A stretch of 64,000 nucleotides of DNA from a virus (lineage: Duplodnaviria > Heunggongvirae > Uroviricota > Caudoviricetes), in the IMG/VR virus record IMGVR_UViG_3300024269_000017. One strand, 5' to 3'. Both the position numbers and the translations under genes were made by a program. Under the pieces are notes generated by a model. The model had not been told where the DNA came from. It made no database searches and saw nothing but the letters and a program-made list of their open reading frames with translations. Within the stretch, counting starts at the first letter, position 1. Each line of letters opens with the position of its first letter. Positions 27,801 to 63,572 of the stretch are shown one piece after another.

Positions 27801-30800
27801 TTTCTAATGCATCCGCCATACGCTCTAATGCATTATCTACTTGGAAATAGCGCTGTTTATGATCTTCTGGCTTCTTTTTATCAAGCTTCTTTGGCTTTCC
27901 GCCACCTCCGCCACCTCCACCTCCGCCGCCACCACCGGTGATACCTCCACCATAGGTGCCTTTGTTAGTGATAGTTTTAATAGCAAAACCTTTAACCATA
28001 CCATCAACAGGATTGGCATGAACACTTAAAGGAATATAAAAGTCTTGACCATTTTCACCATGGGCGATATAACTACCTGCTTTTGCAGACCACTCTGTTT
28101 GTTCCACTGGAAATTCTTTAGTTTCAACCTGCATATCCATTCCCAATGCCGCAGCCAAAGCTTGCATAATACTTGCTGCTTCATTCGCATTAGAGGCTAA
28201 ACCAGAGACAAAACCAGCCAATGAAGTTAAGTTATTCGCAACCACTTGACCCATTTCGCCTTCTCCTAACAATTCACTCCAATTAAGAGCTTTACCTTCT
28301 GGTAAACCATTAACTGCTGTTGATAAGGCTTCAAGCTCATCCGTCATAGATGAAATATCAGCATTACCTGTTAATTGATCTAAAATATGCTTAGAAGCTT
28401 TTTCTTGCAATCTATCGTAAGCTCCATCGACACCATCGGCAGCATCCTACAAATCTTTTAATACGTCATCTTGTAACATAAAGTCTTCTGTTAATGCTTC
28501 AATTCCCTTATCATCCAAATCGAGAACATCACCATACATTTCTTTCATGTCATCAAGAGCTTTTTTATGTTCAACAGTGCCCTTCTATGCCTCTTTTAAT
28601 GTTTTAGAATATGTTTTTAAATTGGACTAAACAGATTTTAAACCCTTTTGAACTCTTGCATATGAAGCTGCCAATTTGATATTATCTTCTTCTGTTTCTC
28701 CATTAATTTCGCCTAATTCTTTTAGATATTCTGTATATTCTTTTAATTCTTCAACACTACCAAAACCAGCTTTAGTTGCCAAATCATCAAGGGAAGCTTC
28801 AAAATTATCCTCTCCAGTACCAGTTGTAGCATCATCTTTAGCTTCTTGTGTCTCTTCTTTTACCCCTCCAATAATTTGATCAAATGCTGAAAGTACATCT
28901 AACCATTTCTATGGATCCCATCCAAGAGCAGTTAAGTCTGCCATCGCCGATGCTTTATCTTGATCAGTAGTTGCAGAAGATAATCTTAATAACGCCTTTT
29001 GCTCTGCTTCAGAAAATTCTATACCATAAGGAGAAAATTTTTCTGTGTTACCTGCAATAAGGCCCGCAATCGCAGCTTCTTGATCGGTATATTTATCATC
29101 TGTAAAATCACGAGTTTCTCCTTCTTTATTTGTCGTAGCAACTTCAATTGATTTTAAAATTGTATCAAAACCTGCCATAGCAACAGATTCCAAGTTCGCT
29201 GCCCAAGTTTCAGGATTAACGCTATCACTTAATTCATATTCTCCCCAACGATTGGCTTCAAATTCACCTCTAGCTCTAATCTCAGCCCTTTTATAAGCTT
29301 CTGCATCAGAAATCTCTTCTCCGTTTGCTTTAGCTTTAGTTTTTTCCTATTCTGCATATGCAGCAATAACTTCTGCATATTCTTCTGCTGTTAATGCTTC
29401 ACCTTCTCGGACTTTATCAGCAATATCTGTACGAGTTTTATAAATATTTGCTGCACCTGCCAAAGACATAAGTGCTTCCGCTGCGGCTTGAGCCGCAGTT
29501 GCAACTGCATTAATCGCAGTTTGCAGAGGTCCCTCTAAAGTAAATCCTGCAGCCTTTAATCGATCTTCAAAAGCTTGTACAGAAGCAGGATCTCCCCAAT
29601 CAACACCAGAAAGAGCATTGGAAAATTCATCTAATCTTTCTACCGGAACTGCTTTTAACATTGCTTTCATTCGATCAATACCAATTTGTCCAGCAGAAGC
29701 TTCGGCATTGGCCAAAATATTTGCCGCAGTCTCTTGATCTTCGGCAGTATCAAAAATGTAGTTATCACTAATCATTTCTTCATAAGCAGATTTAACTCTC
29801 TGAGAAAACTTACCATTAGCAATATCAAAAGTCTTAGCTCCATTATTTACCGCGGTAATAATGGCTGCATAAAATCCATCTACATCTTTAGCAATTGCTG
29901 CACCCTATTGCGTTAAACTAAGATTACCTTCTTCATCTTCGGTTAAATATCCTGCTTGAATACCCCAATTTTTCATTAAAGTGGTATCAGTTGGTAAAGC
30001 ATATTTTCCGTCTTTTAAAGAAAGTCCCAGTCCCATCGCCAAAGTGTTTTTGTTTTCTGCCCATGCATTACGACCAACATCAAAATATCCTTCTGCTAAA
30101 TTTGCCTAGGATAAAATATAAGCCGTTGCAGGATCTATACCTAATACTTTAGCAATTTGCTCCGGGTCTTGCTTAAAAGCTGCATCAATATAAATACCCT
30201 CTTGAGACCAATTTCTATTTGTATACCCTTCAACATCTTTGTATAATGCCGTTTCTACAGCAGCTAAAGCCTCAGAACCACCAGTTCCATCACTATCAAA
30301 TAATGCAGAAACCAATTTCCAATTATCTGCATTCTATAGCCAATCTGTAGTTACTTCTGTCCCAAAAATTAAAGTTAAAATATCAGCTAAAGCTTTAAAT
30401 TTTTCCAAATTTGCTTCAGTAATAGTGGAATCTGCCATATCTTGATTTAATGCAGTAAAATCTGACAACATACCAATTAAAGAATTAAATCCTTTGGCTC
30501 GATTTGATTTAATTACTGCATCTTCATAAGCTTGCTATGTTGTAATTGCTGCATTAGAATTATATAATTTTAATTCTTCTAAGTCATAACCATTCGCACT
30601 AGCGATATTAGATAAAATTGAATCTCTTGCCCAAGCTGGGATGGTAGAAAAATCTGCTTTACCATCTTTCGTAAAACCTGCATTAATTAAATCTGTAAAT
30701 GAAGTAACTGTTGCGTACCAACTATTTAAATCTTCTGATGTAACCTATAAGGTATCTCGACTAGCCCATAAAGTTCCAATTCGACTATTAACATCCTATT

Positions 30801-33800
30801 TTTCTGTATCAGTAGATGATTCTAACCACTTATCCAAAGCAGTTTTGCCTGCTGTATCTTTGGTAATATCATCTAACCCTAAAAGCAGAGATAATAATTT
30901 GCGATCTTCTGACGTTAAATTATCAAAATCAATTAAAGCATCTTCTGTATTTGCGAATTTATTTAAAATTTCATATAATGTATTTGAAAATAAAATTGAT
31001 TTAGACAATGCATTGTCTTGTGAATTTGCGATATATTGCCATTCTTCACCAATTTTTGCAAATTGATCTTGAGTTAAAATACCATACTATTCTAATAAAT
31101 CTAACTCTTCTTGTGAGATCAATCCACCCTCTTGAATTGTTGCTAAAATTTCAGACAATGCAGGAATAGCATTTTTAAAATTTAATAAATTATCGGTTGA
31201 ACGAGATGATTGTGTCTAATGATAATTGTTTAATCCATCAACTTGTGATAAATCTAAAGTTCCACCTTTTGTAAAAAGGCTTAAAATTTTATTTATATCC
31301 CCATTAGCCCAATCTTTAATTAATTGCTATTCGTAACCACTAAGTTCTGATAACATTTTTTGCTATCTTCTAGTTAACTAATTGCCAAATTCGCCCCATT
31401 CTGAAACCCATGCAGTAGAATCTTCCAATAAAGTTGCCAAATTACCTTCTGAAAAAATGCCTAAAATGTCACCGCCATAAATATCTGCCAATGCACTCTA
31501 ATGCTGTGCAAACACAGCTTGCCCTTCTTCGGTTTGGTAATATGCTAACTCTTCTCCTGTAAGGACATCCATATTACCTTTTGATAAATATAATTTCTAT
31601 AATACAGGATCTGCAGTTGCGTAACTAGAAATTAAAGGACTTATATACTACTCTGGATTATTCATAATATCAGTAAGAGTAGGCATAGATAATAATGACG
31701 TAATAGGAATTAATAAATCTTCGACGTCTTCTGACAAAGATTTAATTGTAATCATACCAGACTCTTTATCATAATTATCCATTAATTTGTCTGTTGTCCA
31801 ATCATATTGACTAATATCATAATCGCTATTGGTTGCGAGATAATCTCGATATGATAATAAATAACCACCCATTTGAGCCCAATCTTGTGCTTCTGCATCA
31901 GGCACCCAATTCTCAGGTAAAGAATTTACTAAAATTTCTTCTAATTTATATGGGAGAGCAGTCTATAGCCATTTCATTGTATCTGCATCATATTTAGCAG
32001 TTTTATTATTGTCATTTAATAAATAATTAGCTAAAATGCCATATTGTGCAGGCTACCAAAGAGCATCAGCCCTTGCTTTAGCTGCCCCTTGTGCAAACAC
32101 AGTATCTGTATTTACAGTTAAAACACCTGTATCTGTTAAAGCTCCTACAAAAGCGTTTGGATCAAAAACACTGCCATATTGAGCAGATGGATCCATCCAT
32201 AAATGAAGCTATTGCTCTAATGCGTAAGGTAAATGTCCATTGTTTAAATAATCTAAAACTGCTTCTCCGGCATTTTTATATGTTTTATCATATTGTGTAC
32301 TTGCCCAAGTTAAAGCTTCAGTAACAACAGTATTAATTAACGCTCTTTGATCATATTCATAATCATCGCCACTAAGAGTCTTAAAAAACTTGTCGCCATC
32401 TGCGCTGTTTAATAACCATTGAATCGCTTCATAATTTTCAACAGACCAGCCTTGTGTTGTGTCATAACCAACCTCTTGTGCATCCTCAGGAGTTAAATTA
32501 TGTCTAGTTTCTCCCGATGGACTAGTAAAAGTTGTAGCATATTCAGGCTTAAAAGCGGTACCATATGGATTTGCCCAACCTAATATATATGGCAAAGAAC
32601 TTTCTCGTGATCCAAGTGCCTCTAATCCCGGAAAAGCTTCTTGTAAAATTTCAGGAATTATTTCTGAAGTAGTTTCCCACTTAATAGCTCCAAATAACAT
32701 AGAATGCTTAGTAGTTTTTGTTTCAGTATTAGTTAAAACATTTCCTGAAGCTCCCGCCATTTCAGCACGTCTTTCTTGCGCAATTTCCAATTGACGCATG
32801 GATGATTCTCCTAACGCTGACCAAGCATACTGCATACCTAAATTACGTTGTTCAACTTCTAAGGCTCTAGAGACCAATAGATCCATATTAATCAAGCCAT
32901 TATCATCATATAAAGAACTTAAATCAAAATTATCTCCAAAATATTTTATTGGATCTTTTAATATCTTCCCCAATAAAGGATATGCACTTAATAATTCTAA
33001 AGTCGCAGACTAAACATTACTTAATGCTTGATACCATGCTGAAGTTCCTTCAGTGCAATTATCTAATGCTTCTCTAACACTTGTATAAGAATCAAAATCA
33101 TCTTCTAAAGAAGATATTTTATTTTTAGTATTGGTAATTGCTGTGCTTAACTCTTCAACCTAAGATTTTAAATTTTGCAAATTTTCATCTACACTCATAG
33201 GCTTTTCGACTTCTTTTCTAAAAGCAACGAATGCACCTACAACTAAAGCCAATGCTCCTACAATTAAAGTTAATGGCCAAATTGCAGTATTTAATGCAAC
33301 ACCAAAACCTGTGACTGCATGTGTTGCACCAGCCGCGCCTGCTCCAACCGCAGCCGTTCCTGCCGCGCCAGCAGCTCCAGCAGCAGGCAATAGTGACATT
33401 ACGCCGATTAAGCCTTGACTGATAGAAACAAGAGTCATTACAGTTGTAATAACAAATCCTAAAATTGCATCGAATTTTTCCCAGCCAGACACTTCAGGAT
33501 CTTTTAATGTGTCAACTAAACCCTTAAAAGAATTAATTAAACCATAAATTGATTCAAGACTTCCTGCAATATCTAAAACTGCATTTAAATTTTTAGATGT
33601 TTTTTGTGCGGCTTGAGCAAAAGCTTGTTCCATCTTTTCGCCAGCTTCTTCTGCATCTTTACCCAGTTTATCTAATTTAGATCCACCTTTTTCCCATTCT
33701 TGGAATAACTCTTCAAAACGGCTTTTTAATTCTGGTGGTACCATATTTAAAATAATCGCTTTAATTTTTGGTACATTTTTAGATAATTTCGCTTCAGCCT

Positions 33801-36255
33801 TAGACATACCTTCAGAAATTAAATTAAATAATTGTTCAATTTCTGCTTTTGTTTTATCCCCAGCAAAAGCTTCTTCTAATGATCCAGCGTTGCCTTTAAT
33901 TTTCGCAACTTGACCATTAATTAATTTACTACCTGTTTCTTGTCCAATTCGTTCTAATTCTTTAGCATATTGCAATAGATCTTTTAGAATTTCAGCATCA
34001 CTACGATTAGATGCAAATAATTCTGGTGCTTCAATTGTTCCAAAAGTTTGTTCAATTTGTTTTCCCATATTTTTAACATCTCCAAAAGCTGTAACCAATG
34101 TCTAAGCAGAAGAAACCGCCTAATCAAATGTTAAATTTTCTAAATCCTTAAAACCTAATTTAGTAAAACTAGAACCAAGCTCTTGTGCAAGCTAAGATAC
34201 GGTTTTTTCAAGTTCTTTAGTGGAAGTAGCATCTGTTGTAAACTTAACTTTAATATCAGCCGCATCCACTAAAAATTTTTTATTTGCTTCTTCTGTAAAT
34301 TTTTTCTTTTCTCGCGCATTTAAATAAGCATAATCCTTATTCTATTTATGAGCTCTAGCTTTAGCTTCTTGACTTACTACTTCATCTACTAATGAAGATT
34401 TTTCTTTTTTCATGTTAGTCTGACGTTTTTGCTCTAATTGCATTAACTCATTTAATGCAGCAATTTGTTCTTGATAAGCTGAAATTACTGCTTTAGCTTG
34501 CGCAATTTGTCCTTCTGACATATTTTTTGATGCAACTAATAATTGATCTTTTTTCTCAGAAACTTTTAAAGCTGCATTAATTTGCATATCTTGTGATGGA
34601 TCTAATACTGAACTATCTTTCTAAATTTTTTGTAACTCTTGACGCATCTGCGCTGAATTTTGTAAAAATCTAGTTTGTTCATTCATTCCAGTAAATGCGT
34701 CTTTAATTTTTGTAGTAATTTTTGTAATACCGTTTGCAATATCATCACTAAAAGCTTGAGTTAATGCACCACCAACAGTTCCGATAATACCAGCGACACC
34801 GCCCATACCATCAATTAAGCCGCCAAGAGTAGTTACAATTTTTTCAATTGCATTAGTCACTCCGACCAAAGCTTTATCATTAATTAAACTACTAAAAATT
34901 TTTTCCCAGGCTGCTTGAACTCTTCTGGATGCTGCCTCCCAAGATTCTGCTGCAATATCTGCCATTTCTTGTAAAGAACCTTCCGCATTTGTTGCAATAG
35001 ACATATTGGACTTATACATAGAAGAATTTTCCATTAAGGCCATCCATTGAGTATATTGTCGTTTACCGGCAATCACTTGTGCTATAGCAGTTTGCTCTGC
35101 TCGTCCCATTTCTCCCCATTTGGCCATTAAATCTTCAATAATTGTTCCCATATCTCTCAATTCGCCGTTAGCATCTAAAATAGATACACCAACTTTTTCT
35201 AATTGAGAAGATACTTGTCCAAGATTTACCCCGTCTTCTAATGTCTCTCCAAGTTTCAAATCACCAATACGAGCAAAAATTGTTTTAAATGCAGTACCAA
35301 TAGATTCTGCGGATTCACGAGTAACAGAACTAACTGTAGCAATAATGGAAGAAACTTGCTCCATTGATACACCAACTGTATTAGAAGTTGCAGCTACTTT
35401 TTGCATAGAAGTTGCAATTTCTTCTAAGCTAGTGGCGGTTTTTGCACCAAGGGCTGCCATAATATCTACATATCGTTCAAGTTCATCAGCACCGACTTGA
35501 TAAGAGTTCCATACTGCAGTTAAATATTCTGACATTTCTTGTGCAGAAGTATTAAAACTTGAATTAGCTGCCTTAATTGTAATTGCTGCTTTTTTAGCTA
35601 CCTATTCTGCACTATCGCCCTATTGAAAATAAATCAAAGATGCATCAGCATATGCTTTAGTGGTTGTAGATAATTCTCTCGCCGCGCGATTAGCCTATAC
35701 AGCAAATCGAGACATATCTTCTGCACTTTGTCCAGTAACAATACGAATATTTGTTAAAGAACTATTTAAATCTTTTACATAGGACACAGCTCCAGATAAT
35801 GCACTTTCTAAACCATGTACCATTGTAGAAGATAATTCCCATTTTACTGTATTTTTTAAAGTCTGTCCCCATGCAGCTAATGTGCTATTCATGCGCTTAA
35901 TTGGTACTTCTGCACTGGCAATAACAGAAGCCAATTGTGAAAAAGCTGCTTGACCAGTTTGTCCTGCATCTAATAAAGCATTGCCTAATTGAGTAACAGA
36001 TGTGCCAGCTTTATTTAAACTATTAACAAATGTGTTAAGATTTAATTCACCAGTATTTACATTAGTAGCCTCTTGTAAATGCTTTTTTAAATCTTGCGCA
36101 GCTTCAGAAGCTTTTTTAAGTGCTGAATCTGAAATTGCTACTTCCAAATCCACAGTTGACACTTTATTTAAGCTTTTTTGTAATTCACTTAAAGCTTTTT
36201 TAGCCTAAGAGGTGTCAGCATTAAATTGTAATGTAAACTATCTGTTTCCAGCCAT
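24880..36255 (-). CDS. tape measure protein, ~3791 codons, dozens of in-frame TAGs
   Basis: 15 ORF-track fragments (24880...36162) all in one frame; coiled-coil-rich sequence, hydrophobic Ala/Gly transmembrane-like segment (33160-34098 fragment), C-terminal Thr-rich region; ATG at 36253-55 after AAGGAGATTG RBS with TAG as codons 6 and 17; TAA stop followed by terminator. Confidence 0.6.
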
Positions 36256-51223: not shown

Positions 51224-52290
51224 TTACTCCTTTGCCTTCTTGTTCTTGGCATTCCGGCAACACTTACACAAAGAATACCATCCATCTCTTGAACCTTTGT
51301 TTATGGAAAAAAATCTTGAATGGGCTAACTTAATTTGCCCACACCTAGTACATTTCTTCCACTTCCCATATTCTTTTTCAGTATAATACCAGGTCAGCCA
51401 TTCATCTGTATAATAAGAGGCAATGAGCTTTGGAATTTTATTACGCCATAACGAAGAAATATATTCGAGCGAATGAGTGAAGCCGAATTCCTTTTCAATC
51501 ATTTCCTTGATATCAACATTAGATTGCCCGTCAATTTTATATTCTACAATACGACGGTATAAAGGATAGCCGGCAAGTGAATTATCTACTAATCTATCAA
51601 AGTCTTCCATCATATACCAGGTATCACCCTCGAACCTGCCATAGCATCCTTCTTTTAGTTTAGAATAATTGCATAAAATAGTGCTAATAACAACGGGATT
51701 GATAAAGGACACACCTTCATACTGGATTTCTCCATTTTCATCTACCCATTCATCCCATGGGAGTTTAATATAGTGTCCGATATTTCTTGTAATATTTCGC
51801 GCAACAATTGGTTGGCGGTAGGCGTTTTTAATAAGATATTGATCCTTCCGCAATTCGATAATAGTTGATTTGATAATATAGGCTGCTCGCCCAGTCGCAG
51901 TTTTAGACAGCTTTTCCCAATATGCTATGCTGTCGCGCAACTGACGTAATGGCTCAATTTCTTCTAAATCTTTTTTCGTAATTGTTACTTTCGGCTAAAA
52001 TATTACATTCTTATCGTTCGTTACTAAATTATATATACCATCTTCGCCATTCTCCAACTGGCCAACAAGACCCTCGAAAGATGTTTCTCGTTTATTGACA
52101 GTCGCCATACGGTTGTCGGTGAGAATCTTTCGCTCCTTCTTCTCTTGTTTCTCCATACAAAGAACCAAATAATCAGCAAGGATTTCCAGATATTGCTCGC
52201 TTGGGTCGGGAGTCTCTGTTAAAATCTATTTCACCAATTCATTTCGCTCTTGAGGAGATTCAATCGTATAATCTAGCTTGATTATAATAA
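51224..52290 (-). CDS. ~355-codon protein with C-terminal CxxC...CxxC Zn-finger and 2 in-frame TAGs; first gene of late operon
   Basis: ORF 51224-51940 continues upstream in frame through two TAGs to AGGAGG RBS near 52295; exact start codon unclear (TTG or ATT). Confidence 0.4.
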
Positions 52291-52311
52291 TCAACCTCCT
52301 TCTATGCCTCT

Positions 52312-52340
52312 ATTATACCACAAAAATTTTCATGAGTCAA
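52312..52340 (-). promoter_or_regulatory. late-operon sigma70-type promoter (TTGACT-17-TATAAT), divergent from early promoter
   Basis: minus strand reads tacTTGACTcatgaaaatttttgtggTATAATagaggcatagaAGGAGG. Confidence 0.5.
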
Positions 52341-52358
52341 GTAAAAAAGATCGCCCAT

Positions 52359-52387
52359 TTGAAAATTTAAAAAAAATTTGATATAAT
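52359..52387 (+). promoter_or_regulatory. first plus-strand promoter (TTGAAA-17-TATAAT)
   Basis: catTTGAAAatttaaaaaaaatttgaTATAATgtat upstream of 52419 gene. Confidence 0.5.
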
Positions 52388-52418
52388 GTATATAGAAATG
52401 ATAAAGGAGATGACTTCA

Positions 52419-52751
52419 ATGGTACAGAAGATCATTAGTCTGATTTTAATTGTGGCAATTGCGGTCGGTCTATTGTTTGTTGCAATTGGAGCAACCAAAG
52501 GCACAAGTTATTACATCGTGGATAAGGGGTACGCATTGAGCTATATCGATGAATATGCATTTGTACACGATGATGTATTCTGGTTTGTGTTGGGTGACCA
52601 GAGTGGCAAGATGGAGAGCATTACTGTATTTGTGAGTCCAAATTCTTGGTACCGCTATTCTGTAGGTGAGCGATACGGCGGACCAATTGAGAATTTTATT
52701 ACTTATGAAGGTGATGACAGCATTGCTCGTCACTTGGATGGGGTACACTGA
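52419..52751 (+). CDS. small membrane-anchored protein (~110 aa)
   Basis: AAAGGAGATGACTTCA-ATG; N-terminal hydrophobic helix; TGA stop overlapping next ATG. Confidence 0.5.
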   Translation: MVQKIISLILIVAIAVGLLFVAIGATKGTSYYIVDKGYALSYIDEYAFVHDDVFWFVLGDQSGKMESITVFVSPNSWYRYSVGERYGGPIENFITYEGDDSIARHLDGVH

Positions 52752-53149
52752 TGTTCATCCTTAACTCCGTCGGTAGCACGATTCTGCGCGCAGAAGAAAA
52801 ATTTATGCGAGAGGTTGCACCGACGATGGGACTAGAAAATCCCTTTAAGCGTAAACATAAAGTACTAGCGAGTATGTTTAAAGAGGTAAATACTGGCCAG
52901 TACAAAAGAGTCCCAGATGAAAAATTAGATTGGAGCGACTATCCTACAGAAGAAGAGTGCGCGCATTGGGAAAGAGAAAAAAACCACTATGTGGCGAAGC
53001 AAGTATTGCTTCGCCATGGATGGGTGGAACTACAGAAATTTGCGGAAAGCCGACATGTGGAAGAAGTGTTGAAAAGTTTACTGCCCTGTGAAGCAGAGAG
53101 TGGTCAATGTCACATGGATTGTTATATGAGAGGAGAATGTCATCTATAA
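52751..53149 (+). CDS. hypothetical protein (132 aa)
   Basis: ORF track; ATG overlaps previous TGA (TGATG). Confidence 0.5.
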   Translation: MFILNSVGSTILRAEEKFMREVAPTMGLENPFKRKHKVLASMFKEVNTGQYKRVPDEKLDWSDYPTEEECAHWEREKNHYVAKQVLLRHGWVELQKFAESRHVEEVLKSLLPCEAESGQCHMDCYMRGECHL

Positions 53150-53925
53150 TGAAATGGCAAGAAATGATTGGTCAAACTTTTAAGACATTAACTGTTATTC
53201 GGCGTCCTTCTAAAGAAGAGACACCTTGGAAGAGTCATTCGACACCACTGCTATGTAAATGCAATCAATGCGGCAAGGAAGCTATTTTGCGGAAAGAAGA
53301 TGTTGAAAAGGGTTGTGTTGATTGCAGAATCGCCGCAGGAGAAATTTCAGGTGGTAGAGGTCATCAAGCCTTAAAAATGGGAGATAGGTTTGGTAAATTA
53401 ACAGTGATTGAATATGATTTACCTTATAAAACCGCGGGTGGAAGATATACTTCTTATGTTAAATGTCAATGTGATTGCGGCAATGTGGTTTCAGTGCGAA
53501 AAGACCATTTAACTGGATATAAGCGCGGTAGCGATAGAGATGGATATAAATATACTGTATCGTGTGGCTGTTCTCAAGTATCTGCTGGTGAACTATACGT
53601 GCGGACAATGCTGCAAGATCTTGATGTAATATTTGAAGAGCAATATTCCATTGAAGAGCTGTCTACAGGTTTAAAGTTTGATTTTGCGGTTTTTGATTCA
53701 AATAGACAGTTATCTTATTTAATTGAATATGATGGAGAGCAGCATTTTAAGGCTGTTGAAGCATGGGGCGGAGAAGAAAAATTACAAATTCAAAAAGAGC
53801 GGGATGAGCGCAAGAACGTATACTGTAAAGAGCAAGGGATCCCTTTAATTAGAATTCCCTATACCGTTAAACTTTCCAATCTCACTTTTGATGATATATC
53901 TCCGTCTTCCAGATTTCAAATTTGA
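53149..53925 (+). CDS. Cys-rich Zn-ribbon repeats fused to C-terminal DUF559/Vsr-like endonuclease domain (~258 aa)
   Basis: GAGGAG RBS before ATG 53149; two CxCxxCG...CxxC repeats; C-terminus FDFAVFD...IEYDGEQH...ERDERKNVYCKEQGIPLIRIPY matches DUF559-like pattern. Confidence 0.5.
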   Translation: MKWQEMIGQTFKTLTVIRRPSKEETPWKSHSTPLLCKCNQCGKEAILRKEDVEKGCVDCRIAAGEISGGRGHQALKMGDRFGKLTVIEYDLPYKTAGGRYTSYVKCQCDCGNVVSVRKDHLTGYKRGSDRDGYKYTVSCGCSQVSAGELYVRTMLQDLDVIFEEQYSIEELSTGLKFDFAVFDSNRQLSYLIEYDGEQHFKAVEAWGGEEKLQIQKERDERKNVYCKEQGIPLIRIPYTVKLSNLTFDDISPSSRFQI

Positions 53926-54201
53926 TTTAGTGGGAATTGTGACCAGGTATAACCCCTTTTCTCTTTCAAAATAATTTTTTTCCCGAAAGGGTGCCCGGAG
54001 GGTGAATGTTGAATGGATTTACATACCAGAAAAAAATACAAGAGTACTGCCAGCATCTGGAACGCTCGTCGGGGCGTGCATGGTCGGCACGCCCCGAGTT
54101 TGCGCAATAAACCTGTCATGCAACAAAAGCGTCGCGAATGCATTGAATGCATCATGTTAAGTGTTATCCTAAAACTTAATAAAAAAAATTGTAAAAACCT
54201 A

Positions 54202-55915: not shown

Positions 55916-55925
55916 TAAATGAAAT

Positions 55926-55960
55926 GCAGGATGACTCCACACATCCTGCATTTCTTTTCC
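55926..55960 (+). terminator. rho-independent terminator
   Basis: GCAGGATGactccacaCATCCTGC followed by TTTCTTTTCC. Confidence 0.6.
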
Positions 55961-56400
55961 CTCTGGCCGGCTGGTGCACGGGCGCCAAGTCTGTGCACCA
56001 GCCGTATTCCCGCACGCATAGGCCATGCATAATTATTCATCGACAATGCATAAACATACAAAAACAAGCCCCATCCCAAAACAGAGCCACTCTCGTCTTC
56101 GCTTGCGCGGGCGGAATTTCACCGCCGTGGATGTATGGGGTGGAGTGATCGCGTAGGCTAGGGGGACGATTTGAACGTCTCTTCTACTTGCGTAGCGTGC
56201 TAACCGAGCTGACACTACCCGTTCGCCGCGATCTGGAAGCTCTTGATACCTGCGAGAGTTTTGCCACCGAGTAATCGCGAATCCTCAGTGCCCGTAGTGG
56301 TTGTGCTTCCCTCAACCTCTGATAGTATTATACTACAAGAGGGATCAAATGTCAATACCTTTTTGCAGAAAAAGAAAAAAAAGTTTTTTTCAAAAACCTA

Positions 56401-56429
56401 TTGACATTCCTGCCCACCTATGCTATAAT
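56401..56429 (+). promoter_or_regulatory. early promoter P4
   Basis: aaaaagtttttttcaaaaacctaTTGACAttcc-N-TATAAT. Confidence 0.6.
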
Positions 56430-57697: not shown

Positions 57698-58066
57698 ATG
57701 ACTACTATCAATGTGAAGAATGAGAAGCTGACCTACGTGACCGCCCTGACCTACGCCATTGAGAACGGCAACCTGCCCACCGAGATCGCGGAAAAGCTGA
57801 TTGCCCTGCGTACTCAGCAGGAGAAGCGTAACAGCGGTGAGAAGAAGCCGACCAAGGTTCAGGAAGCCAACGTTGGCATCAAGCAGGTTATCCTGACTGC
57901 CCTTGAGGGTCAGGAAGCCAAGACCGTAAGCGAGATTCAGACCCTTGCTCCCGAGCTGGGCGAGCTGAGCAATCAGAAGGTTGCAAGCCTTGTCCGTCAG
58001 CTTGTGGAAGAGGGCAAGCTGACCCGAATCGAGGAGAAGCGCAAGGCGTATTTCCGCCTTGCCTGA
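57698..58066 (+). CDS. winged-helix DNA-binding protein, paralog 1 (122 aa)
   Basis: AGAGGTAATCGCT-ATG; C-terminal SNQKVASLVRQLVEEGKLTRIEEKRKAYF shared with 61254 and 63165 genes. Confidence 0.6.
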   Translation: MTTINVKNEKLTYVTALTYAIENGNLPTEIAEKLIALRTQQEKRNSGEKKPTKVQEANVGIKQVILTALEGQEAKTVSEIQTLAPELGELSNQKVASLVRQLVEEGKLTRIEEKRKAYFRLA

Positions 58067-59952: not shown

Positions 59953-60426
59953 ATGAACACTCTGCTTCTCACCTTCATCCTGCTGAACATCGCCAATGTT
60001 ATCATTCAGACCGTCAAGAGCATTGCAACCATCAAATGCGGAAAAGGGGTCGCCGCGATTGTTAACGCTGTTGCCTTCGGACTCTACACTGTGGTCACTG
60101 TCTACATGATGTGCGATTTGCCTCTTGCCACCAAGGCGCTGATTGTCGCAGGCTGTAACCTTGTGGGTGTGTATGTGGTCAAGTATTTTGAAGAAAAGGC
60201 AAGAAAAGACAAACTCTGGAAAGTCGAAGTCACCATTCCTGCCGAACAAGCAGAACAGATGATTGAAGATTGCAAATACTATGGATTCACTTACAACTAT
60301 GTGAACATCGAAAAGTATTTCTTGTTTAACTTCTATTGTCCCACTCAGCAGGACAGTCTGAATGTTAAGAAACTGTTACAGAGCTATGATGCAAAATACT
60401 TTGTGACTGAAAGCAAAAATTTGTGA
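59953..60426 (+). CDS. membrane protein, 2 predicted TM helices plus soluble C-terminal domain (157 aa)
   Basis: ORF track; aaaggaagtaacaca-ATG; hydrophobic N-terminal ~80 aa. Confidence 0.6.
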   Translation: MNTLLLTFILLNIANVIIQTVKSIATIKCGKGVAAIVNAVAFGLYTVVTVYMMCDLPLATKALIVAGCNLVGVYVVKYFEEKARKDKLWKVEVTIPAEQAEQMIEDCKYYGFTYNYVNIEKYFLFNFYCPTQQDSLNVKKLLQSYDAKYFVTESKNL

Positions 60427-60434
60427 GAAAGGGG

Positions 60435-60463
60435 TTGACAACCCCTCTCACATGTGGTATAAT
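60435..60463 (+). promoter_or_regulatory. early promoter P13 with inverted repeat flanking -35
   Basis: GTGAGAAAGGGG-TTGACAA-CCCCTCTCAC then atgtgg-TATAAT. Confidence 0.6.
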
Positions 60464-60493: not shown

Positions 60494-60766
60494 ATGAGAG
60501 CAACTGGTATTGTAAGAAGAGTCGATGAACTGGGTCGCATTGTTATCCCCAAGGAAATCCGCAGGAACCTGAACATCAAAGAGGGCGATCCCCTTGAGAT
60601 GTATCTGGACAAGGAATACGGGCTTGTGATGAAGCCCTACCATGAAGAGCATCTGAGCTTTGACCGCCTGCAGTCTGAGTGGGAAAGCCTGAGCACCGCA
60701 AAGCGGCAGGAACTGATCTGCGAAATGGTGAACCACCTCGATGACCCCATCCGCTGTGAAGAGTGA
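60494..60766 (+). CDS. AbrB/MazE/SpoVT-family (swapped-hairpin) transcriptional regulator (~90 aa)
   Basis: N-terminus MRATGIVRRVDELGRIVIPKEIRRNLNIKEGDPLE matches AbrB-N domain pattern; AAAGAGGTAATGAAC-ATG. Confidence 0.6.
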   Translation: MRATGIVRRVDELGRIVIPKEIRRNLNIKEGDPLEMYLDKEYGLVMKPYHEEHLSFDRLQSEWESLSTAKRQELICEMVNHLDDPIRCEE

Positions 60767-60786
60767 CCGCAAGGTCACTCTTTTTT
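60761..60786 (+). terminator. rho-independent terminator (first of tandem pair)
   Basis: GAGTGACCgcaaGGTCACTC + TTTTTT. Confidence 0.7.
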
Positions 60787-60793
60787 CGCCCGC

Positions 60794-60820
60794 GCGCCCA
60801 CGAGCGTGGGCGCCGGTTTT
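60794..60820 (+). terminator. second tandem terminator
   Basis: GCGCCCACgagcGTGGGCGC cgg TTTT. Confidence 0.6.
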
Positions 60821-60912
60821 CCCGCGTATCCTTCCATTATACCATTTTTCGAGCAATTTGTCAATAGGCAAACTGCACAAACTTTTTCCCGAAACTTTGT
60901 GCAATCTGTCAA

Positions 60913-60941
60913 TAGACATTTGGGGTCTGATACTGTATAAT
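60913..60941 (+). promoter_or_regulatory. variant promoter (TAGACA-17-TATAAT) with conserved upstream TTTGTGCAATCTGTCAA element and palindrome
   Basis: caaTAGACAtttggggtctgatactgTATAATagataatgtcaggaggg; same architecture recurs at 62818. Confidence 0.5.
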
Positions 60942-61022
60942 AGATAATGTCAGGAGGGCACTGAGGTGATGCCGAGTGAAGCTGGTCGACAAAACTTCTT
61001 CAAAAAAAGTTTTGAAAAACCC

Positions 61023-61051
61023 TTGACAAAGCCGCCAAGATGTGATATACT
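61023..61051 (+). promoter_or_regulatory. early promoter P14b (drives ~90-nt leader RNA)
   Basis: cccTTGACAaagccgccaagatgtgaTATACT. Confidence 0.55.
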
Positions 61052-61143
61052 GATAGTGTCAAGAGGGCAAGGAACTGCAAGAGGAACCCTTCGGCGCTGA
61101 AGCGCACAGGATAAAAACTCAAAAAAAAAGTTTCAAAAACCCC

Positions 61144-61172
61144 TTGACAAACACCGCAAGGTGTGGTACAAT
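61144..61172 (+). promoter_or_regulatory. early promoter P14c
   Basis: ccccTTGACAaacaccgcaaggtgtggTACAAT. Confidence 0.55.
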
Positions 61173-61253
61173 AAGGATGTCGAAAGGGCAAGGCGCCAGC
61201 CCCACTCGACAGTCACTAACACCAATCGACAAGAAAGAAAGAGGTAATGAATC

Positions 61254-61607
61254 ATGGAAAAGATGACTTATGTGAAGGCTCTGGAAGTTGCTCTGAACTG
61301 CGAAGCTCTGTCTGCCGAAGTGCGTGAGAAGCTGTCTGCTCTGCGTGACCAGCAGGTCAAGCGTAACTCTGCGGAGAAGAAGCCCACCAAGACCCAGCAG
61401 GCGAATGAGGGCGTGAAGTCCCATGTGCTGGAAGTGCTGGCTTCCTGCGCCCAGCCTGTGACTGTGTCTGAACTGATGCAGGCTGATGAAGAGCTGTCCC
61501 AGCTCTCCAATCAGAAGGTCGCTTCGCTGGTTCGCCAGCTGGTGGAAGCTGGCAAGGTTCAGCGACTGGAAGAGAAGCGCAAGGCTTACTTCACTCTGGT
61601 GAAGTGA
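61254..61607 (+). CDS. winged-helix DNA-binding protein, paralog 2 (117 aa)
   Basis: ORF track; AGAGGTAATGAATC-ATG; shares SNQKVASLVRQLVEAGK...EEKRKAYF with paralogs. Confidence 0.65.
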   Translation: MEKMTYVKALEVALNCEALSAEVREKLSALRDQQVKRNSAEKKPTKTQQANEGVKSHVLEVLASCAQPVTVSELMQADEELSQLSNQKVASLVRQLVEAGKVQRLEEKRKAYFTLVK

Positions 61608-62465: not shown

Positions 62466-62702
62466 ATGACTCAGTTTCAGTATGAAGTAAATGTTTACGA
62501 AGAAGACCACGTCCTGTCCTGCAAGACCAACAATCCCCGCACCGCCTGCCAGTTTATGCTGGATCATGCCGACTGCTATCTTGATGTCATCAACGGTTTT
62601 ACTGGTGAAGTGCTCGCTGTGATGAACCATGAGAATGCTTACTGTCAAGAGGATTTCGGGCTGATGCTTCTCGGCTATATGACCGAAACAATTTGGGGCT
62701 GA
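62466..62702 (+). CDS. hypothetical protein (78 aa)
   Basis: AAAGAGGTAATTGACC-ATG; TGA stop. Confidence 0.55.
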   Translation: MTQFQYEVNVYEEDHVLSCKTNNPRTACQFMLDHADCYLDVINGFTGEVLAVMNHENAYCQEDFGLMLLGYMTETIWG

Positions 62703-62728
62703 CCCTTCGGGGTTGGCTCTTTTCTTTT
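62697..62728 (+). terminator. rho-independent terminator (first of tandem pair)
   Basis: GGCTGACCCttcgGGGTTGGCT + CTTTTCTTTT. Confidence 0.6.
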
Positions 62729-62731
62729 GAG

Positions 62732-62763
62732 CCGGTCGTGCGCGGGCCACACGACCGGTTTTT
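62732..62763 (+). terminator. second tandem terminator
   Basis: CCGGTCGTGcgcgggccaCACGACCGG + TTTTT. Confidence 0.7.
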
Positions 62764-62817
62764 CCGCAATGGGCAGATCTACCAAGAAATTCGCTGAAAA
62801 TTTGTGCATTTTGCCAA

Positions 62818-62846
62818 TAGACATTTTATCCCGAAAGTGGTATACT
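62818..62846 (+). promoter_or_regulatory. variant promoter (TAGACA-17-TATACT), second copy
   Basis: tttgtgcattttgccaaTAGACAttttatcccgaaagtggTATACTaataatgtcaggagggg. Confidence 0.5.
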
Positions 62847-62938
62847 AATAATGTCAGGAGGGGAGGCCAAGAAACCGAGAGGCGGCCGACTCTCAGGAAG
62901 TAGAGGAAGAAAACTTGAAAAAAAGTTTCCGAAACCTC

Positions 62939-62967
62939 TTGACAAACCACTGACCCTGTGGTATAAT
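62939..62967 (+). promoter_or_regulatory. early promoter P17b (drives ~95-nt structured leader RNA)
   Basis: ctcTTGACAaaccactgaccctgtggTATAAT. Confidence 0.55.
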
Positions 62968-63090
62968 AAGGGTGTCAGGTGAGGGAAGCAACTGACAGTC
63001 GCTTAGCCAAGGTAGCCTGCGGAGTGGGTGCGCAACACTCCATGGTTAGACCCTGTGCAAGCGAAGCGAAAAAAAAGTTTGCGAAACCCC

Positions 63091-63119
63091 TTGACAAACA
63101 ACTGAATAGGTGCTATAAT
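63091..63119 (+). promoter_or_regulatory. early promoter P17c
   Basis: ccccTTGACAaacaactgaataggtgcTATAAT. Confidence 0.6.
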
Positions 63120-63164
63120 AAGAGTGTCCTAAGGGACAAGACAAAAAGAAAGAGGTAATGAATC

Positions 63165-63572
63165 ATGATGAAGTTCACTAAGAAGGTTGCTCTGGAAGTC
63201 GCTATCAATGCTATCGAGAACTCCACCCTGCCCAACTGGTCTTTCACTGAGGGCGAGGAAACCCTGACCATCTCCAAAGCGGAAGCCATCGAGAAGCTCC
63301 AGAAGATGATTGAGCAGTTGGAGGCTAAGTCCAACGCTCCCAAGAAGCCCACTAAGGTGCAGGAAGCCAACGAGGGTGTCAAGGACATCATCAAGGCTGT
63401 GCTGGAAGGTCAGTCCCCCATGACTGTCTCCGAAATCATGACCCACTCTGCGGAACTGAGTGCCCTGTCCAACCAGAAGGTCGCCTCTCTGGTGCGCCAG
63501 ATGGTCGAGGCTGGCGTGCTGGTTCGCACTGAGGAAAAGCGCAAGGCTTTCTTCGCCCTCGCTCAGGGCTGA
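63165..63572 (+). CDS. winged-helix DNA-binding protein, paralog 3 (135 aa)
   Basis: ORF track; AGAGGTAATGAATC-ATG; shares SNQKVASLVRQMVEAG...EEKRKAFF. Confidence 0.65.
   Translation: MMKFTKKVALEVAINAIENSTLPNWSFTEGEETLTISKAEAIEKLQKMIEQLEAKSNAPKKPTKVQEANEGVKDIIKAVLEGQSPMTVSEIMTHSAELSALSNQKVASLVRQMVEAGVLVRTEEKRKAFFALAQG

What the first reader, a model, noticed from the sequence alone, without database searches (positions are those of the whole stretch)
60855..60941. Variant TAGACA-type promoters carry a conserved upstream operator-like element
At 60855-60941 there is an 11-bp near-perfect palindrome GCACAAACTTT/AAACTTTGTGC separated by ttcccga. Its right arm forms a conserved 28-nt element TTTGTGCAATCTGTCAATAGACATTTGG that directly precedes the -10. 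The same element (24 of 28 identical), without the left palindrome arm, precedes the second variant promoter at 62797-62846. It sits just downstream of tandem terminators. It looks like a repressor operator, or an attenuator, controlling the leader-RNA cassette.
Basis: seen in the sequence. Interest (0 to 1): 0.5.

Follow-up and report, generated by a model that had tools for sequence, protein, structure and literature searches.

The report
Conserved box between back-to-back phage promoters
The reported palindrome is two copies of a short conserved DNA box (TTTGTGCA), each at a fixed distance upstream of one of two back-to-back phage promoters; many gut Clostridia phages share this control module, and the box is probably a docking site for a still unknown regulator, not an RNA attenuator.

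Summary
The sequence facts hold, with small slips: the two 28-mers share 23 of 28 bases, not 24, and the palindrome spacer is ttcccg. The left arm is the same element serving a perfect minus-strand promoter (TTGACA-17-TGgTATAAT, 60864..60836). Window 60836-60941 is therefore a roughly 106-bp dyad of two divergent promoters. Each has TTTGTGCA starting 17 nt before its -35.

The box is real and conserved. It is bimodal in a promoter census of related phage contigs and locked 17/18 nt (less often 27/28 nt) before the -35. It is the only invariant 8-mer in 13 aligned modules. The TAGACA -35 occurs only with the box (11/46 against 0/605), but most box promoters have TTGACA.

The same module recurs in relatives, including the published code-15 phage phAss-1:
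- terminator and GC hairpin,
- a leftward consensus promoter,
- the box dyad,
- a weakened rightward promoter with leader.

The box dyad also lies in the inverted terminal repeats of unrelated 13-kb phi29-like phages.

Best reading: a sequence-specific protein site working with RNA polymerase, probably helping weakened promoters and coordinating the divergent pair. The binding factor and the sign of regulation are unknown. The attenuator reading is rejected.

The parts
60494..60766 (+). Upstream gene for an AbrB/SpoVT-type DNA-binding protein (90 aa). The leftward promoter of the module would transcribe antisense to it.
   Evidence: Pfam MazE_antitoxin at 1.5e-12. PDB SpoVT/AbrB N-terminal domains at 3e-17 to 1e-12.
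60758..60789 (+). T1, the intrinsic terminator of the upstream gene (9-11 bp stem followed by U6).
   Evidence: RNA fold.
60790..60816 (.). T2, the GC-rich hairpin of the module. Read rightward it is followed by GGUUUUCCC. Read leftward it is the 5' hairpin of the RNA from the minus-strand promoter.
   Evidence: Folds of both strands. The same hairpin position with unrelated stem sequences occurs in relatives.
60836..60864 (-). Leftward consensus promoter: -35 TTGACA at 60864..60859, 17-nt spacer, TGgTATAAT with the -10 at 60841..60836.
   Evidence: (12/12 match, TG extension). Conserved in aligned modules.
60874..60881 (-). Leftward box, TTTGTGCA on the minus strand, starting 17 nt before its -35.
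60885..60893 (+). Inter-box motif TTTCCCGAA. It recurs just upstream of the rightward box in many relatives.
60896..60918 (+). Rightward composite element: box TTTGTGCA (60896-60903), ATC, then TGTCAATAGACA including the -35 TAGACA (60913-60918).
60936..60941 (+). -10 TATAAT of the rightward weakened promoter. The predicted start is near 60948.
60948..61253 (+). Leader containing two further consensus promoters (61023-61051 and 61144-61172). No significant RNA structure in the first segment.
   Evidence: Fold z = 0.28.
61254..61607 (+). Winged-helix paralogue gene served by the cassette.
   Evidence: AF2 model pLDDT 86. Foldseek matches to MarR, ArsR, Fur and BlaI winged helices at rmsd 1.3-2.2 A. 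Paralogues at 57698-58066 and 63165-63572.
62695..62761 (+). T1 and T2 hairpins of the second, decayed module.
62767..62800 (.). Decayed remnant of the leftward half. The box and -35 are degenerate and the -10 is deleted.
   Evidence: (D9, 70% identity) and alignment A1.
62801..62846 (+). Second rightward box promoter: TTTGTGCA, TTT, TGCCAATAGACA, 17-nt spacer, TATACT.
62847..63572 (+). Second leader, with promoters at 62939-62967 and 63091-63119, followed by the winged-helix paralogue gene at 63165-63572.

Best explanation
The element is a promoter-coupled DNA box. Its consensus is aaTTTTTGTGCAAtTTGCC(T/A)AT(T/A)GACA, spanning about -52 to -30. It belongs to a conserved intergenic control module in the early region of TAG-recoded (code 15) phages of gut Clostridia.

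In the window, two copies sit back to back. One serves a perfect leftward promoter that fires into the GC hairpin T2 and runs antisense to the AbrB-like gene. The other serves the weakened rightward promoter (TAGACA) that heads the leader and winged-helix-gene cassette.

Shown here:
- the box, its fixed and helically phased position, and the promoter hexamers;
- the module architecture and its conservation;
- the association of the box with weakened core hexamers.

Inferred:
- The box is the binding site of a sequence-specific protein that acts together with RNA polymerase. The protein could be host-encoded or from a widely shared family.
- It most likely recruits or stabilises polymerase at the weakened rightward promoter.
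- Because the two boxes form a phased dyad, it also coordinates the divergent pair as a switch or insulator at operon boundaries.
For: Discreteness:
- Among 575 extended -10 sites in loci fetched independently of the motif, mismatches to TTTGTGCA at offsets 17/18 are bimodal: 68 sites with 0 and 19 with 1, against a background peak at 6.

Position:
- Box starts cluster 17/18 nt and 27/28 nt before the -35. The opposite-strand box clusters at 39/40, 49/50 and 59/60 nt, a 10-bp phasing.

Conservation:
- The motif occurs in 24 of 49 related loci.
- In 13 aligned modules TTTGTGCA is the only run of 8 invariant columns, while the rightward -35 varies between TAGACA, TTGCAA, TTGTAT, TTGTAA and TTGACA.
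- The closest relatives and phAss-1 keep the whole architecture and its synteny with the winged-helix gene.

Link to weak promoters:
- TAGACA is found in 11/46 box promoters and 0/605 others.
- 32% of box promoters have an imperfect -35, against 10% of others.
- TAGACA goes with a TATACT -10.

Extended site:
- Positions -37 and -34 co-vary (TATT against AATA). Fisher p = 4e-4 in the unbiased loci and 5e-18 in all loci. This fits a dyad TGYC-WWWW-GACA that overlaps the -35.

Stand-alone binding unit:
- Full palindromes TTTGTGCA-N3/4-TGCACAAA occur away from promoters.
- The dyad TTGCACAAA-N24-TTTGTGCAAAATGTCAATAGACA lies in the inverted terminal repeats of 13-kb phi29-like phages, with no -10 hexamer at the 17-nt spacing.
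- Those phages share no detectable protein with the window.
Against: - No binding protein is identified and no experiment or transcript mapping is available.
- Most box promoters (33/46) already have a perfect -35 and would not need an activator.
- The spacing between the two boxes of a dyad is not fixed: N3-4, 7, 14, 24 and 31 all occur, and N31 is off phase.
- The sequences compared are related and partly redundant. The Fisher p-values and counts therefore overstate the number of independent events.
- Conservation could partly reflect recombination or gene conversion of a portable cassette rather than selection on binding.
- Strong consensus promoters lie directly downstream of the weak box promoter, so its contribution to expression of the winged-helix gene is unclear.
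Confidence: 0.5

Rival explanations
1. Repressor operator. A dimeric or tetrameric repressor, for example the adjacent AbrB/SpoVT-like protein or a winged-helix paralogue, binds the dyad and shuts off one or both divergent promoters. This would give early shut-off or autoregulation.
For: - The window has a dyad, and full palindromes exist in relatives.
- Two plausible DNA-binding genes flank the module.
- The module often precedes winged-helix paralogues.
- The extended element overlaps the -35.
Against: - The box is held at a fixed distance upstream of the -35 rather than anywhere over the core promoter.
- It is enriched at promoters with weakened hexamers, which is unexpected for a pure repressor target.
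- A winged-helix gene is the first ORF downstream of 38% of box promoters and 32% of other promoters, so there is no specific link.
- Of 201 loci fetched by the motif, only about 39 hold winged-helix homologues and 13 hold AbrB homologues. The phi29-like phages have neither.
Confidence: 0.22
2. Factor-independent upstream promoter element. The box would be a lineage-specific UP-like or extended -35 contact read directly by host RNA polymerase (alpha C-terminal domain or sigma-A region 4), compensating for weak hexamers.
For: - The box has a fixed position at -52 to -38 with 10-bp phasing.
- It has T/A-rich flanks.
- It occurs in unrelated phages of the same host clade.
- It tolerates weak -35 hexamers.
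Against: - The invariant core GTGCA is unlike the A-tract UP elements that the other ~20 promoters of the same region use.
- The copies in the terminal repeats and the off-promoter palindromes have no -10 at the right distance.
- The scan of 185,579 species' genomes returned almost only phage-like contigs, not host housekeeping promoters. That pattern was strict, so this is weak evidence.
Confidence: 0.15
3. Signature of a portable promoter-terminator cassette. On this reading, the box is conserved mainly because the module spreads and is homogenised by recombination, as with T4 PeSLs, and it has no regulatory role of its own.
For: - Modules sit at gene-cassette boundaries next to unrelated genes.
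- Decayed and half modules exist.
- The same core is found in an unrelated phage lineage.
- The window holds duplicated cassettes at 60.8 kb and 62.8 kb.
Against: - Within aligned modules the flanks and spacers have diverged freely while the 8-mer stays invariant.
- Position relative to the -35 is constrained to the base pair.
- Recombination alone does not explain the -37/-34 covariation.
- This reading is not exclusive of a regulatory role.
Confidence: 0.1
4. Transcriptional attenuator or RNA hairpin formed by the palindrome in a leader RNA.
For: The 45-nt RNA folds at -10.2 kcal/mol, z = -3.1.
Against: - The dyad lies upstream of both predicted starts and downstream of two terminators.
- No U-run follows it.
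- In relatives the arms never vary, so there are no compensatory changes, while the loop ranges from 3-4 to 54 nt.
- The second copy lacks the left arm yet keeps the box.
Confidence: 0.03

Closest known systems
Bacillus phage phi29 early/late switch: regulator p4 (with p6) at the A2c, A2b and A3 promoters (PMC3100819, PMC1904284)
   Same: - A strong early promoter and a late promoter with a poor -35 are placed back to back.
- An inverted-repeat protein site lies between them. One protein represses the strong promoter and activates the weak one through polymerase contacts.
- Both are phages of Firmicutes that use sigma-A promoters.
   Different: - The p4 site is AACTTTTT-N15-AAAATGTT, centred at -82 of A3. 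Here the box is TTTGTGCA at -52 to -45 and the dyad spacing is variable.
- No p4 homologue was found.
- The leftward promoter here fires into a hairpin and then antisense to the upstream gene, with no leftward operon in sight.
- No binding has been shown.
T4 middle promoters with the MotA box (own knowledge)
   Same: - A sigma-70-type -10 is combined with a defective -35.
- A short conserved box defines a separate temporal promoter class.
- Such promoters often lie upstream of early-promoted genes.
   Different: - The MotA box replaces the -35 (centred at -30) and needs AsiA.
- Here a -35-like hexamer is kept at 17-nt spacing and the box lies further upstream.
- Many box promoters here are perfect consensus.
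UP elements of strong bacterial and phage promoters (own knowledge; PMC4495994 for B. subtilis alpha-CTD)
   Same: - Position -40 to -60.
- Helical phasing.
- Compensation for weak core elements.
   Different: - UP elements are A/T tracts read through the minor groove.
- This box has an invariant GTGCA core, forms palindromes, and occurs without promoters.
PeSLs, the composite terminator/early-promoter cassettes of T4-like phages (PMC2839356, PMC4122927)
   Same: - Both are short conserved stem-loop-plus-early-promoter units.
- They are repeated between variable small early genes.
- Decayed and duplicated copies are present.
   Different: - PeSLs are unidirectional (stem-loop then promoter) and have been implicated in homologous recombination.
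- Here the unit is bidirectional or convergent around a GC hairpin and carries an extra sequence-specific box.
- Recombination was not tested here.
Lambda OR between the divergent promoters PR and PRM (own knowledge)
   Same: Divergent promoters share operator sites, and one protein represses one promoter and activates the other.
   Different: - Lambda has three 17-bp operators at fixed spacing that overlap the core promoters, and a known repressor.
- None of these features is established here, and the phage looks lytic, with an early takeover-like region.

Membership tests
Sigma-70/sigma-A-type promoter | -35 and -10 hexamers with 16-18 nt spacing | tested here: met
   Minus strand 60864..60836 scores 12/12 with a TG extension. 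Plus strand 60913-60941 scores 11/12 and 62818-62846 scores 10/12.
Sigma-70/sigma-A-type promoter | Mapped transcription start | not testable with these tools
   No transcript data. Starts near 60829 (-) and 60948 (+) are predictions.
Repressor operator | Dyad-symmetric site | tested here: met
   A 27-nt inverted repeat at 78%. Palindromes TTTGTGCA-N3/4-TGCACAAA in relatives. Dyad spacing is variable.
Repressor operator | Site overlaps the core promoter or the start so that binding excludes polymerase | tested here: inconclusive
   The 8-mer box lies at -52 to -45, outside the core. The extended element TGYC-WWWW-GACA does overlap the -35.
Repressor operator | Cognate repressor that binds the site | not testable with these tools
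   The candidates (AbrB-like and winged-helix proteins) are plausible DNA binders but are not universally present alongside the box.
Activator-dependent promoter (class I/II type) | Weak -35 combined with a conserved upstream site at a fixed, helically phased distance | tested here: met
Activator-dependent promoter (class I/II type) | Activity depends on an activator protein | not testable with these tools
   Needs in vitro transcription or reporters.
UP element | A/T-rich tracts at -40 to -60 with no base-specific GC core | tested here: not met
   The GTGCA core is invariant. Neighbouring promoters carry classical A-tract elements instead.
Intrinsic attenuator or terminator | Stable hairpin followed by a U-run inside a transcribed leader | tested here: not met
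   The hairpin is -10.2 kcal/mol with no U-run, and it lies upstream of both predicted starts.
PeSL-like promoter-terminator cassette | Composite stem-loop plus early promoter, repeated between variable early genes | tested here: met
PeSL-like promoter-terminator cassette | Serves as a recombination breakpoint between otherwise unrelated sequences | not tested
   Only indirect hints: duplicated and decayed cassettes and the core shared with the phi29-like terminal repeats.
Spo0A box (TGNCGAA) | Match to TGNCGAA | tested here: not met
   The box reads TGTGCAA, with positions 4-5 swapped relative to TGNCGAA (direct reading). True TGTCGAA motifs lie elsewhere, after the -10 of other promoters.
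DnaA box (TTWTNCACA) | 9-mer match with conservation falling on the DnaA-box positions | tested here: not met
   Only the terminal-repeat variant TTTTGCACA fits. In the large phages the TTWT part falls in the variable N3, while the invariant TTT lies outside the DnaA box.

The most novel reading that the evidence does not exclude
The box dyad may be a shared signal read by one factor across unrelated phages of the same Clostridia hosts. It sits at operon-boundary promoter switches in large TAG-recoded phages and in the inverted terminal repeats (replication origins) of 13-kb phi29-like phages. Two routes are possible. Both lineages may plug into a host regulator that reports cell state. Alternatively the small phages may mimic the large phages' control sites, a satellite-like or competitive interaction. 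On this reading the convergent consensus promoters around a GC hairpin would be a new kind of transcriptional insulator or small-RNA generator.
Probability: 0.15. Interest if true: 0.75.

Novelty: new variant of a known kind. Interest (0 to 1): 0.5.

Why it matters
Regulation in uncultivated, stop-codon-recoded gut phages is essentially unknown. The only paper found on a relative (phAss-1, PMC10607447) does not mention promoters in its text.

A discrete, position-locked box gives concrete handles:
- a bait for pulling down the regulator;
- a marker for a temporal promoter class;
- a way to correct annotation, since in phAss-1 an annotated CDS overlaps part of the module.

The same dyad lies in the terminal repeats of unrelated phi29-like phages. 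If this reflects a common host factor, it would tie phage transcription and replication to host physiology, as Spo0A does for phi29.

Tried and rejected
- Rfam at gathering threshold on the whole window and ARAGORN both found nothing.
- Megablast of 56-64 kb against cultured and deposited phages gave no match.
- A full-text search for the motif string returned only primers and unrelated hits.
- I looked for a shared trans factor. No ORF of the phi29-like phage L063 matches the window. Pfam and PHROGs give nothing for its early proteins. No early protein of the window is present in more than about a quarter of the 201 motif-fetched loci. Winged-helix genes are not specifically downstream of box promoters.
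- The Spo0A-box, DnaA-box, Rex/CRP-like, CodY-like (for TTTCCCGAAA) and phi29 p4-site readings of the box are all only partial resemblances. I rejected or left them open on sequence grounds.
- A small ORF in the leader (60966-61100) was rejected. Its similarity to the ORF in the second cassette comes from translating conserved promoter DNA.
- The identical 23-mer in Ruminococcus flavefaciens, between aroK and a radical-SAM gene, overlaps a promoter-like site on the other strand. Its significance is unclear.

Full report
CONTEXT

The window has two parts. From 1 to about 52 kb it is 35% GC, with minus-strand structural genes (terminase-like and tape-measure hits). From about 54 to 64 kb it is about 49% GC and holds small plus-strand genes. 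Each of these genes is preceded by a near-perfect sigma-70-type promoter: an A-tract upstream element, TTGACA, a 17-nt spacer, TGnTATAAT, and a conserved initial transcribed sequence. The finding lies in this early-like region, between an AbrB/SpoVT-type gene (60494-60766) and a winged-helix gene (61254-61607).

OBSERVATION

The 28-mer is at 60896-60923. The copy at 62801-62828 shares 23 of 28 bases, not 24. The 11-nt arms are 10/11 complementary and the spacer is ttcccg. The tandem terminators are real: hairpins at 60758-60783 followed by U6 and at 60790-60816 followed by GGUUUUCCC, with the same arrangement at 62695-62761.

TTTGTGCAGTTTGCCTATTGACA lies at 60881..60859 (3 matches against 0.01 expected by chance). 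It belongs to a 12/12 consensus minus-strand promoter with a TG extension (-35 at 60864..60859, -10 at 60841..60836). The inverted repeat covers 27 nt at 78% (I3), and symmetry about 60888.5 reaches both TATAAT hexamers.

The 'palindrome' is therefore a back-to-back pair of paralogous promoters, each with TTTGTGCA starting 17 nt before its -35. The second site keeps a decayed left half (D9). There the leftward -10 is deleted and the box and -35 are degenerate.

IS THE BOX A REAL ELEMENT?

I fetched 49 loci around homologues of the winged-helix and exonuclease-like genes from IMG/VR. Most come from contigs of 120-200 kb. These loci were chosen without reference to the motif.

- 24 of 49 loci match TTTGTGCANNNTGNCNATWGACA.
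- In a census of 651 distinct promoter-like sites, TTTGTGCA starts 17 nt (46 sites) or 18 nt (25 sites) before the -35.
- When sites are anchored only on extended -10 hexamers (575 sites), mismatches to the box at that position are bimodal: 68 sites with 0 and 19 with 1, against a background mode of 6. The box is therefore a discrete element.
- Box offsets show 10-bp phasing. The same-strand box starts at 17/18 and 27/28 nt. The opposite-strand box starts at 39/40, 49/50 and 59/60 nt.
- In an alignment of 13 modules from the window and seven relatives, TTTGTGCA is the only run of eight invariant columns. The rightward -35 varies between TAGACA, TTGCAA, TTGTAT, TTGTAA and TTGACA, and the flanks diverge.

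RELATION TO THE TAGACA VARIANT

TAGACA occurs in 11 of 46 box promoters and 0 of 605 others. Box promoters more often have an imperfect -35 (24 of 76 against 42 of 403 among sites with at most 2 mismatches). TAGACA also goes with the weaker -10 TATACT.

Positions -37 and -34 co-vary: C-T-A-T-T-GACA against C-A-A-T-A-GACA. Fisher p is 4e-4 in the unbiased loci and 5e-18 in all loci. Relatedness of the sequences inflates both values. The central tetramer is effectively flipped within TGYC-WWWW-GACA. This looks like a dyad-symmetric recognition site overlapping the -35, not random decay of the hexamer.

THE MODULE

Relatives show a recurrent architecture:
1. The terminator of the upstream gene.
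2. Often a rightward box promoter.
3. A GC-rich hairpin with an 8-10 bp stem. The stem sequences are unrelated between loci, so it is the structure that is kept.
4. GAAATTTCC.
5. A leftward consensus promoter.
6. The leftward box.
7. A gap of 14, 24 or 31 nt that often holds TTTCCCGAA.
8. The rightward box.
9. A weakened rightward promoter.
10. A purine-rich leader (TGTCAGGAGGGAG...).
11. One to three consensus promoters, then a gene, often a winged-helix paralogue.

Counts by strand support this. Of 31 minus-strand box promoters, 29 have a perfect -35 and 29 are followed at once by a GC hairpin. Of 45 plus-strand box promoters, only 23 have a perfect -35. Of 375 plus-strand promoters without the box, 4 are followed by such a hairpin.

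Window 60790-60941 is one such module without step 2. Window 62729-62846 is a decayed one. The closest relatives (L002-L008, for example L004 3440-3995) keep the module about 370 nt upstream of the orthologous winged-helix gene, with tandem consensus promoters in between. The published phage phAss-1 (OQ749652, 'Caudoviricetes code 15 clade') has the same module, and an annotated CDS overlaps part of it. Its paper does not mention promoters.

BEYOND THIS PHAGE GROUP

Many are contigs of 13-14 kb with the element about 50-70 nt from both ends in inverted orientation. L063 is an example:
- It encodes a protein-primed-type DNA polymerase B, a terminase and a major head protein.
- Its inverted terminal repeats of about 110 nt read GGGACACGTAATAGCAGATTGCACAAA-N24-TTTGTGCAAAATGTCAATAGACA.
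- No -10 follows at 17 nt, so no canonical sigma-70-type promoter is evident there.
- No L063 ORF matches the window at E <= 0.01.

A scan of one genome per species gave 82 stretches. My own estimate for equal base frequencies is about 9 by chance. Nearly all hits are in Clostridia MAG contigs (Acutalibacteraceae, Ruminococcus, Oscillospiraceae, Lachnospiraceae) that carry the phage-type module.

The box dyad is thus used by at least two unrelated phage lineages of related hosts, and it can exist without a promoter.

MECHANISM

Shown: the elements, their positions, their phasing, their conservation and their association with weakened hexamers.

Inferred: a sequence-specific protein binds the box and acts with RNA polymerase. 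Three points favour polymerase-coupled action (activation or recruitment at the weak rightward promoter, possibly with simultaneous control of the leftward one, as p4 does at phi29 A2b/A3; PMC3100819):
- the base-pair-locked and phased distance to the -35;
- the tolerance of weak hexamers only when the box is present;
- the box being more conserved than the -35.

Three points favour a stand-alone protein site over a pure UP-like contact:
- the invariant GTGCA core;
- the palindromic versions away from promoters;
- the copies in the terminal repeats without a -10.

The factor is unknown. The AbrB-like protein and the winged-helix paralogues are credible DNA binders. Their homologues are missing from most box-bearing loci and from the small phages, and winged-helix genes are not preferentially downstream of box promoters. 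A host factor, or several unrelated phage factors, remain possible.

The leftward promoter would make an RNA that starts with the T2 hairpin and then runs antisense into the AbrB-like gene, because neither hairpin is followed by a U-run in that direction. The gene upstream of the module differs between relatives. A general role such as insulation against read-through, or a short hairpin RNA, therefore seems more likely than control of a particular gene. This part is speculative.

REJECTED: ATTENUATOR

- The dyad lies outside both predicted transcripts.
- It folds weakly (-10.2 kcal/mol) and has no U-run.
- Its arms never vary in relatives while the loop does.

VERDICT

The 'operator-like' idea is partly supported, but not as a site specific to TAGACA promoters and not as an attenuator. 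This is a new variant of a known kind of thing, a promoter-coupled regulatory box in a divergent-promoter switch. It has two unusual features: convergent or divergent consensus promoters around a GC hairpin, and sharing with the terminal repeats of unrelated phages. Interest is moderate, 0.5.

Noticed in passing
window 12644-50056 (minus strand), e.g. 24880-36255: The late genes appear to read TAG as a sense codon. With TAG read through, frames fuse into a 3791-codon frame with 42 in-frame TAGs (tape-measure-like), a 2004-codon frame with 18, and others. The 16 early genes end in TGA (14) or TAA (2), never TAG. This fits the hit to phAss-1 of the 'code 15 clade'.
   Followed up: partly
window 55167, 59506, 61178, 61703, 63934 (+), and variants after most early promoters: A conserved sequence follows the -10 by about 5-6 nt: TGTCGAAAGG, with variants TGTCAAGAGG and CATCGAAAGG. 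TGTCGAA equals the Spo0A 0A-box consensus (own knowledge). It is locked in position but not enriched across the window (7 found, 6.4 expected). It could be a Spo0A site as in phi29 (PMC2731898), a 5'-leader feature, or related to the ribosome-binding site.
   Followed up: partly
window 56327-56429 and 55920-56320: A second back-to-back pair of 12/12 consensus promoters (minus at 56355, plus at 56401) has no box. An A/T-tract dyad lies between them. The leftward promoter faces about 400 nt with no convincing ORF. The only RNA-family hit is a sub-threshold match to BjrC68 (19.4 bits against a gathering score of 39).
   Followed up: partly
L043 3618-3830, 4833-5050, 1616-1830; L250 78-207; L036 3438-3620: In relatives the GC hairpin is flanked by two convergent consensus box promoters whose predicted starts are only about 25 nt apart. 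Both strands of the hairpin would be transcribed and the two polymerase footprints would overlap. The function is unknown.
   Followed up: partly
L063 1-113 and 13662-13774; many other loci in L050-L168: 13-14 kb phi29-like phage contigs have inverted terminal repeats of about 110 nt that carry the box dyad. Several contigs still start with Illumina adapter remnants (tgctcttccgatct). This suggests reads that begin at true physical genome ends.
   Followed up: partly
window about 52000-54000: GC content jumps sharply from about 35-39% to about 49%, and the coding strand switches, at the border between the late and early regions.
   Followed up: no
window 57698-58066, 61254-61607, 63165-63572; loci L001-L049: The small winged-helix family is greatly expanded. 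There are three paralogues in 6 kb of the window, and 107 of 879 ORFs in the related loci belong to it. The C-terminal domain is conserved and the N-termini vary.
   Followed up: partly
window 60400-60427: Two box-like repeats, TTTGTGAC and TTTGTGAG, lie 20 nt apart upstream of the promoter of the AbrB-like gene (-35 at 60435). Their offsets of 35 and 15 nt are not the canonical 17/18.
   Followed up: no
L251 (phAss-1 OQ749652, record 130698-131642): An annotated 'hypothetical protein' CDS on the opposite strand overlaps the terminator and the first box promoter of the module. This is probably an annotation artefact.
   Followed up: no
L172, L189, L209, L220 (3649-3671), L246: Ruminococcus flavefaciens genomes carry the 23-mer of the small-phage terminal repeats (TTTGTGCAAAATGTCAATAGACA; one has a single-base variant). 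In L220 it lies between a shikimate-kinase-like gene and a radical-SAM-like gene (my reading of the ORFs). There the other strand reads TTGACA-17-TAAAAT in front of the kinase gene. This is either chance or a hint to the host factor.
   Followed up: partly
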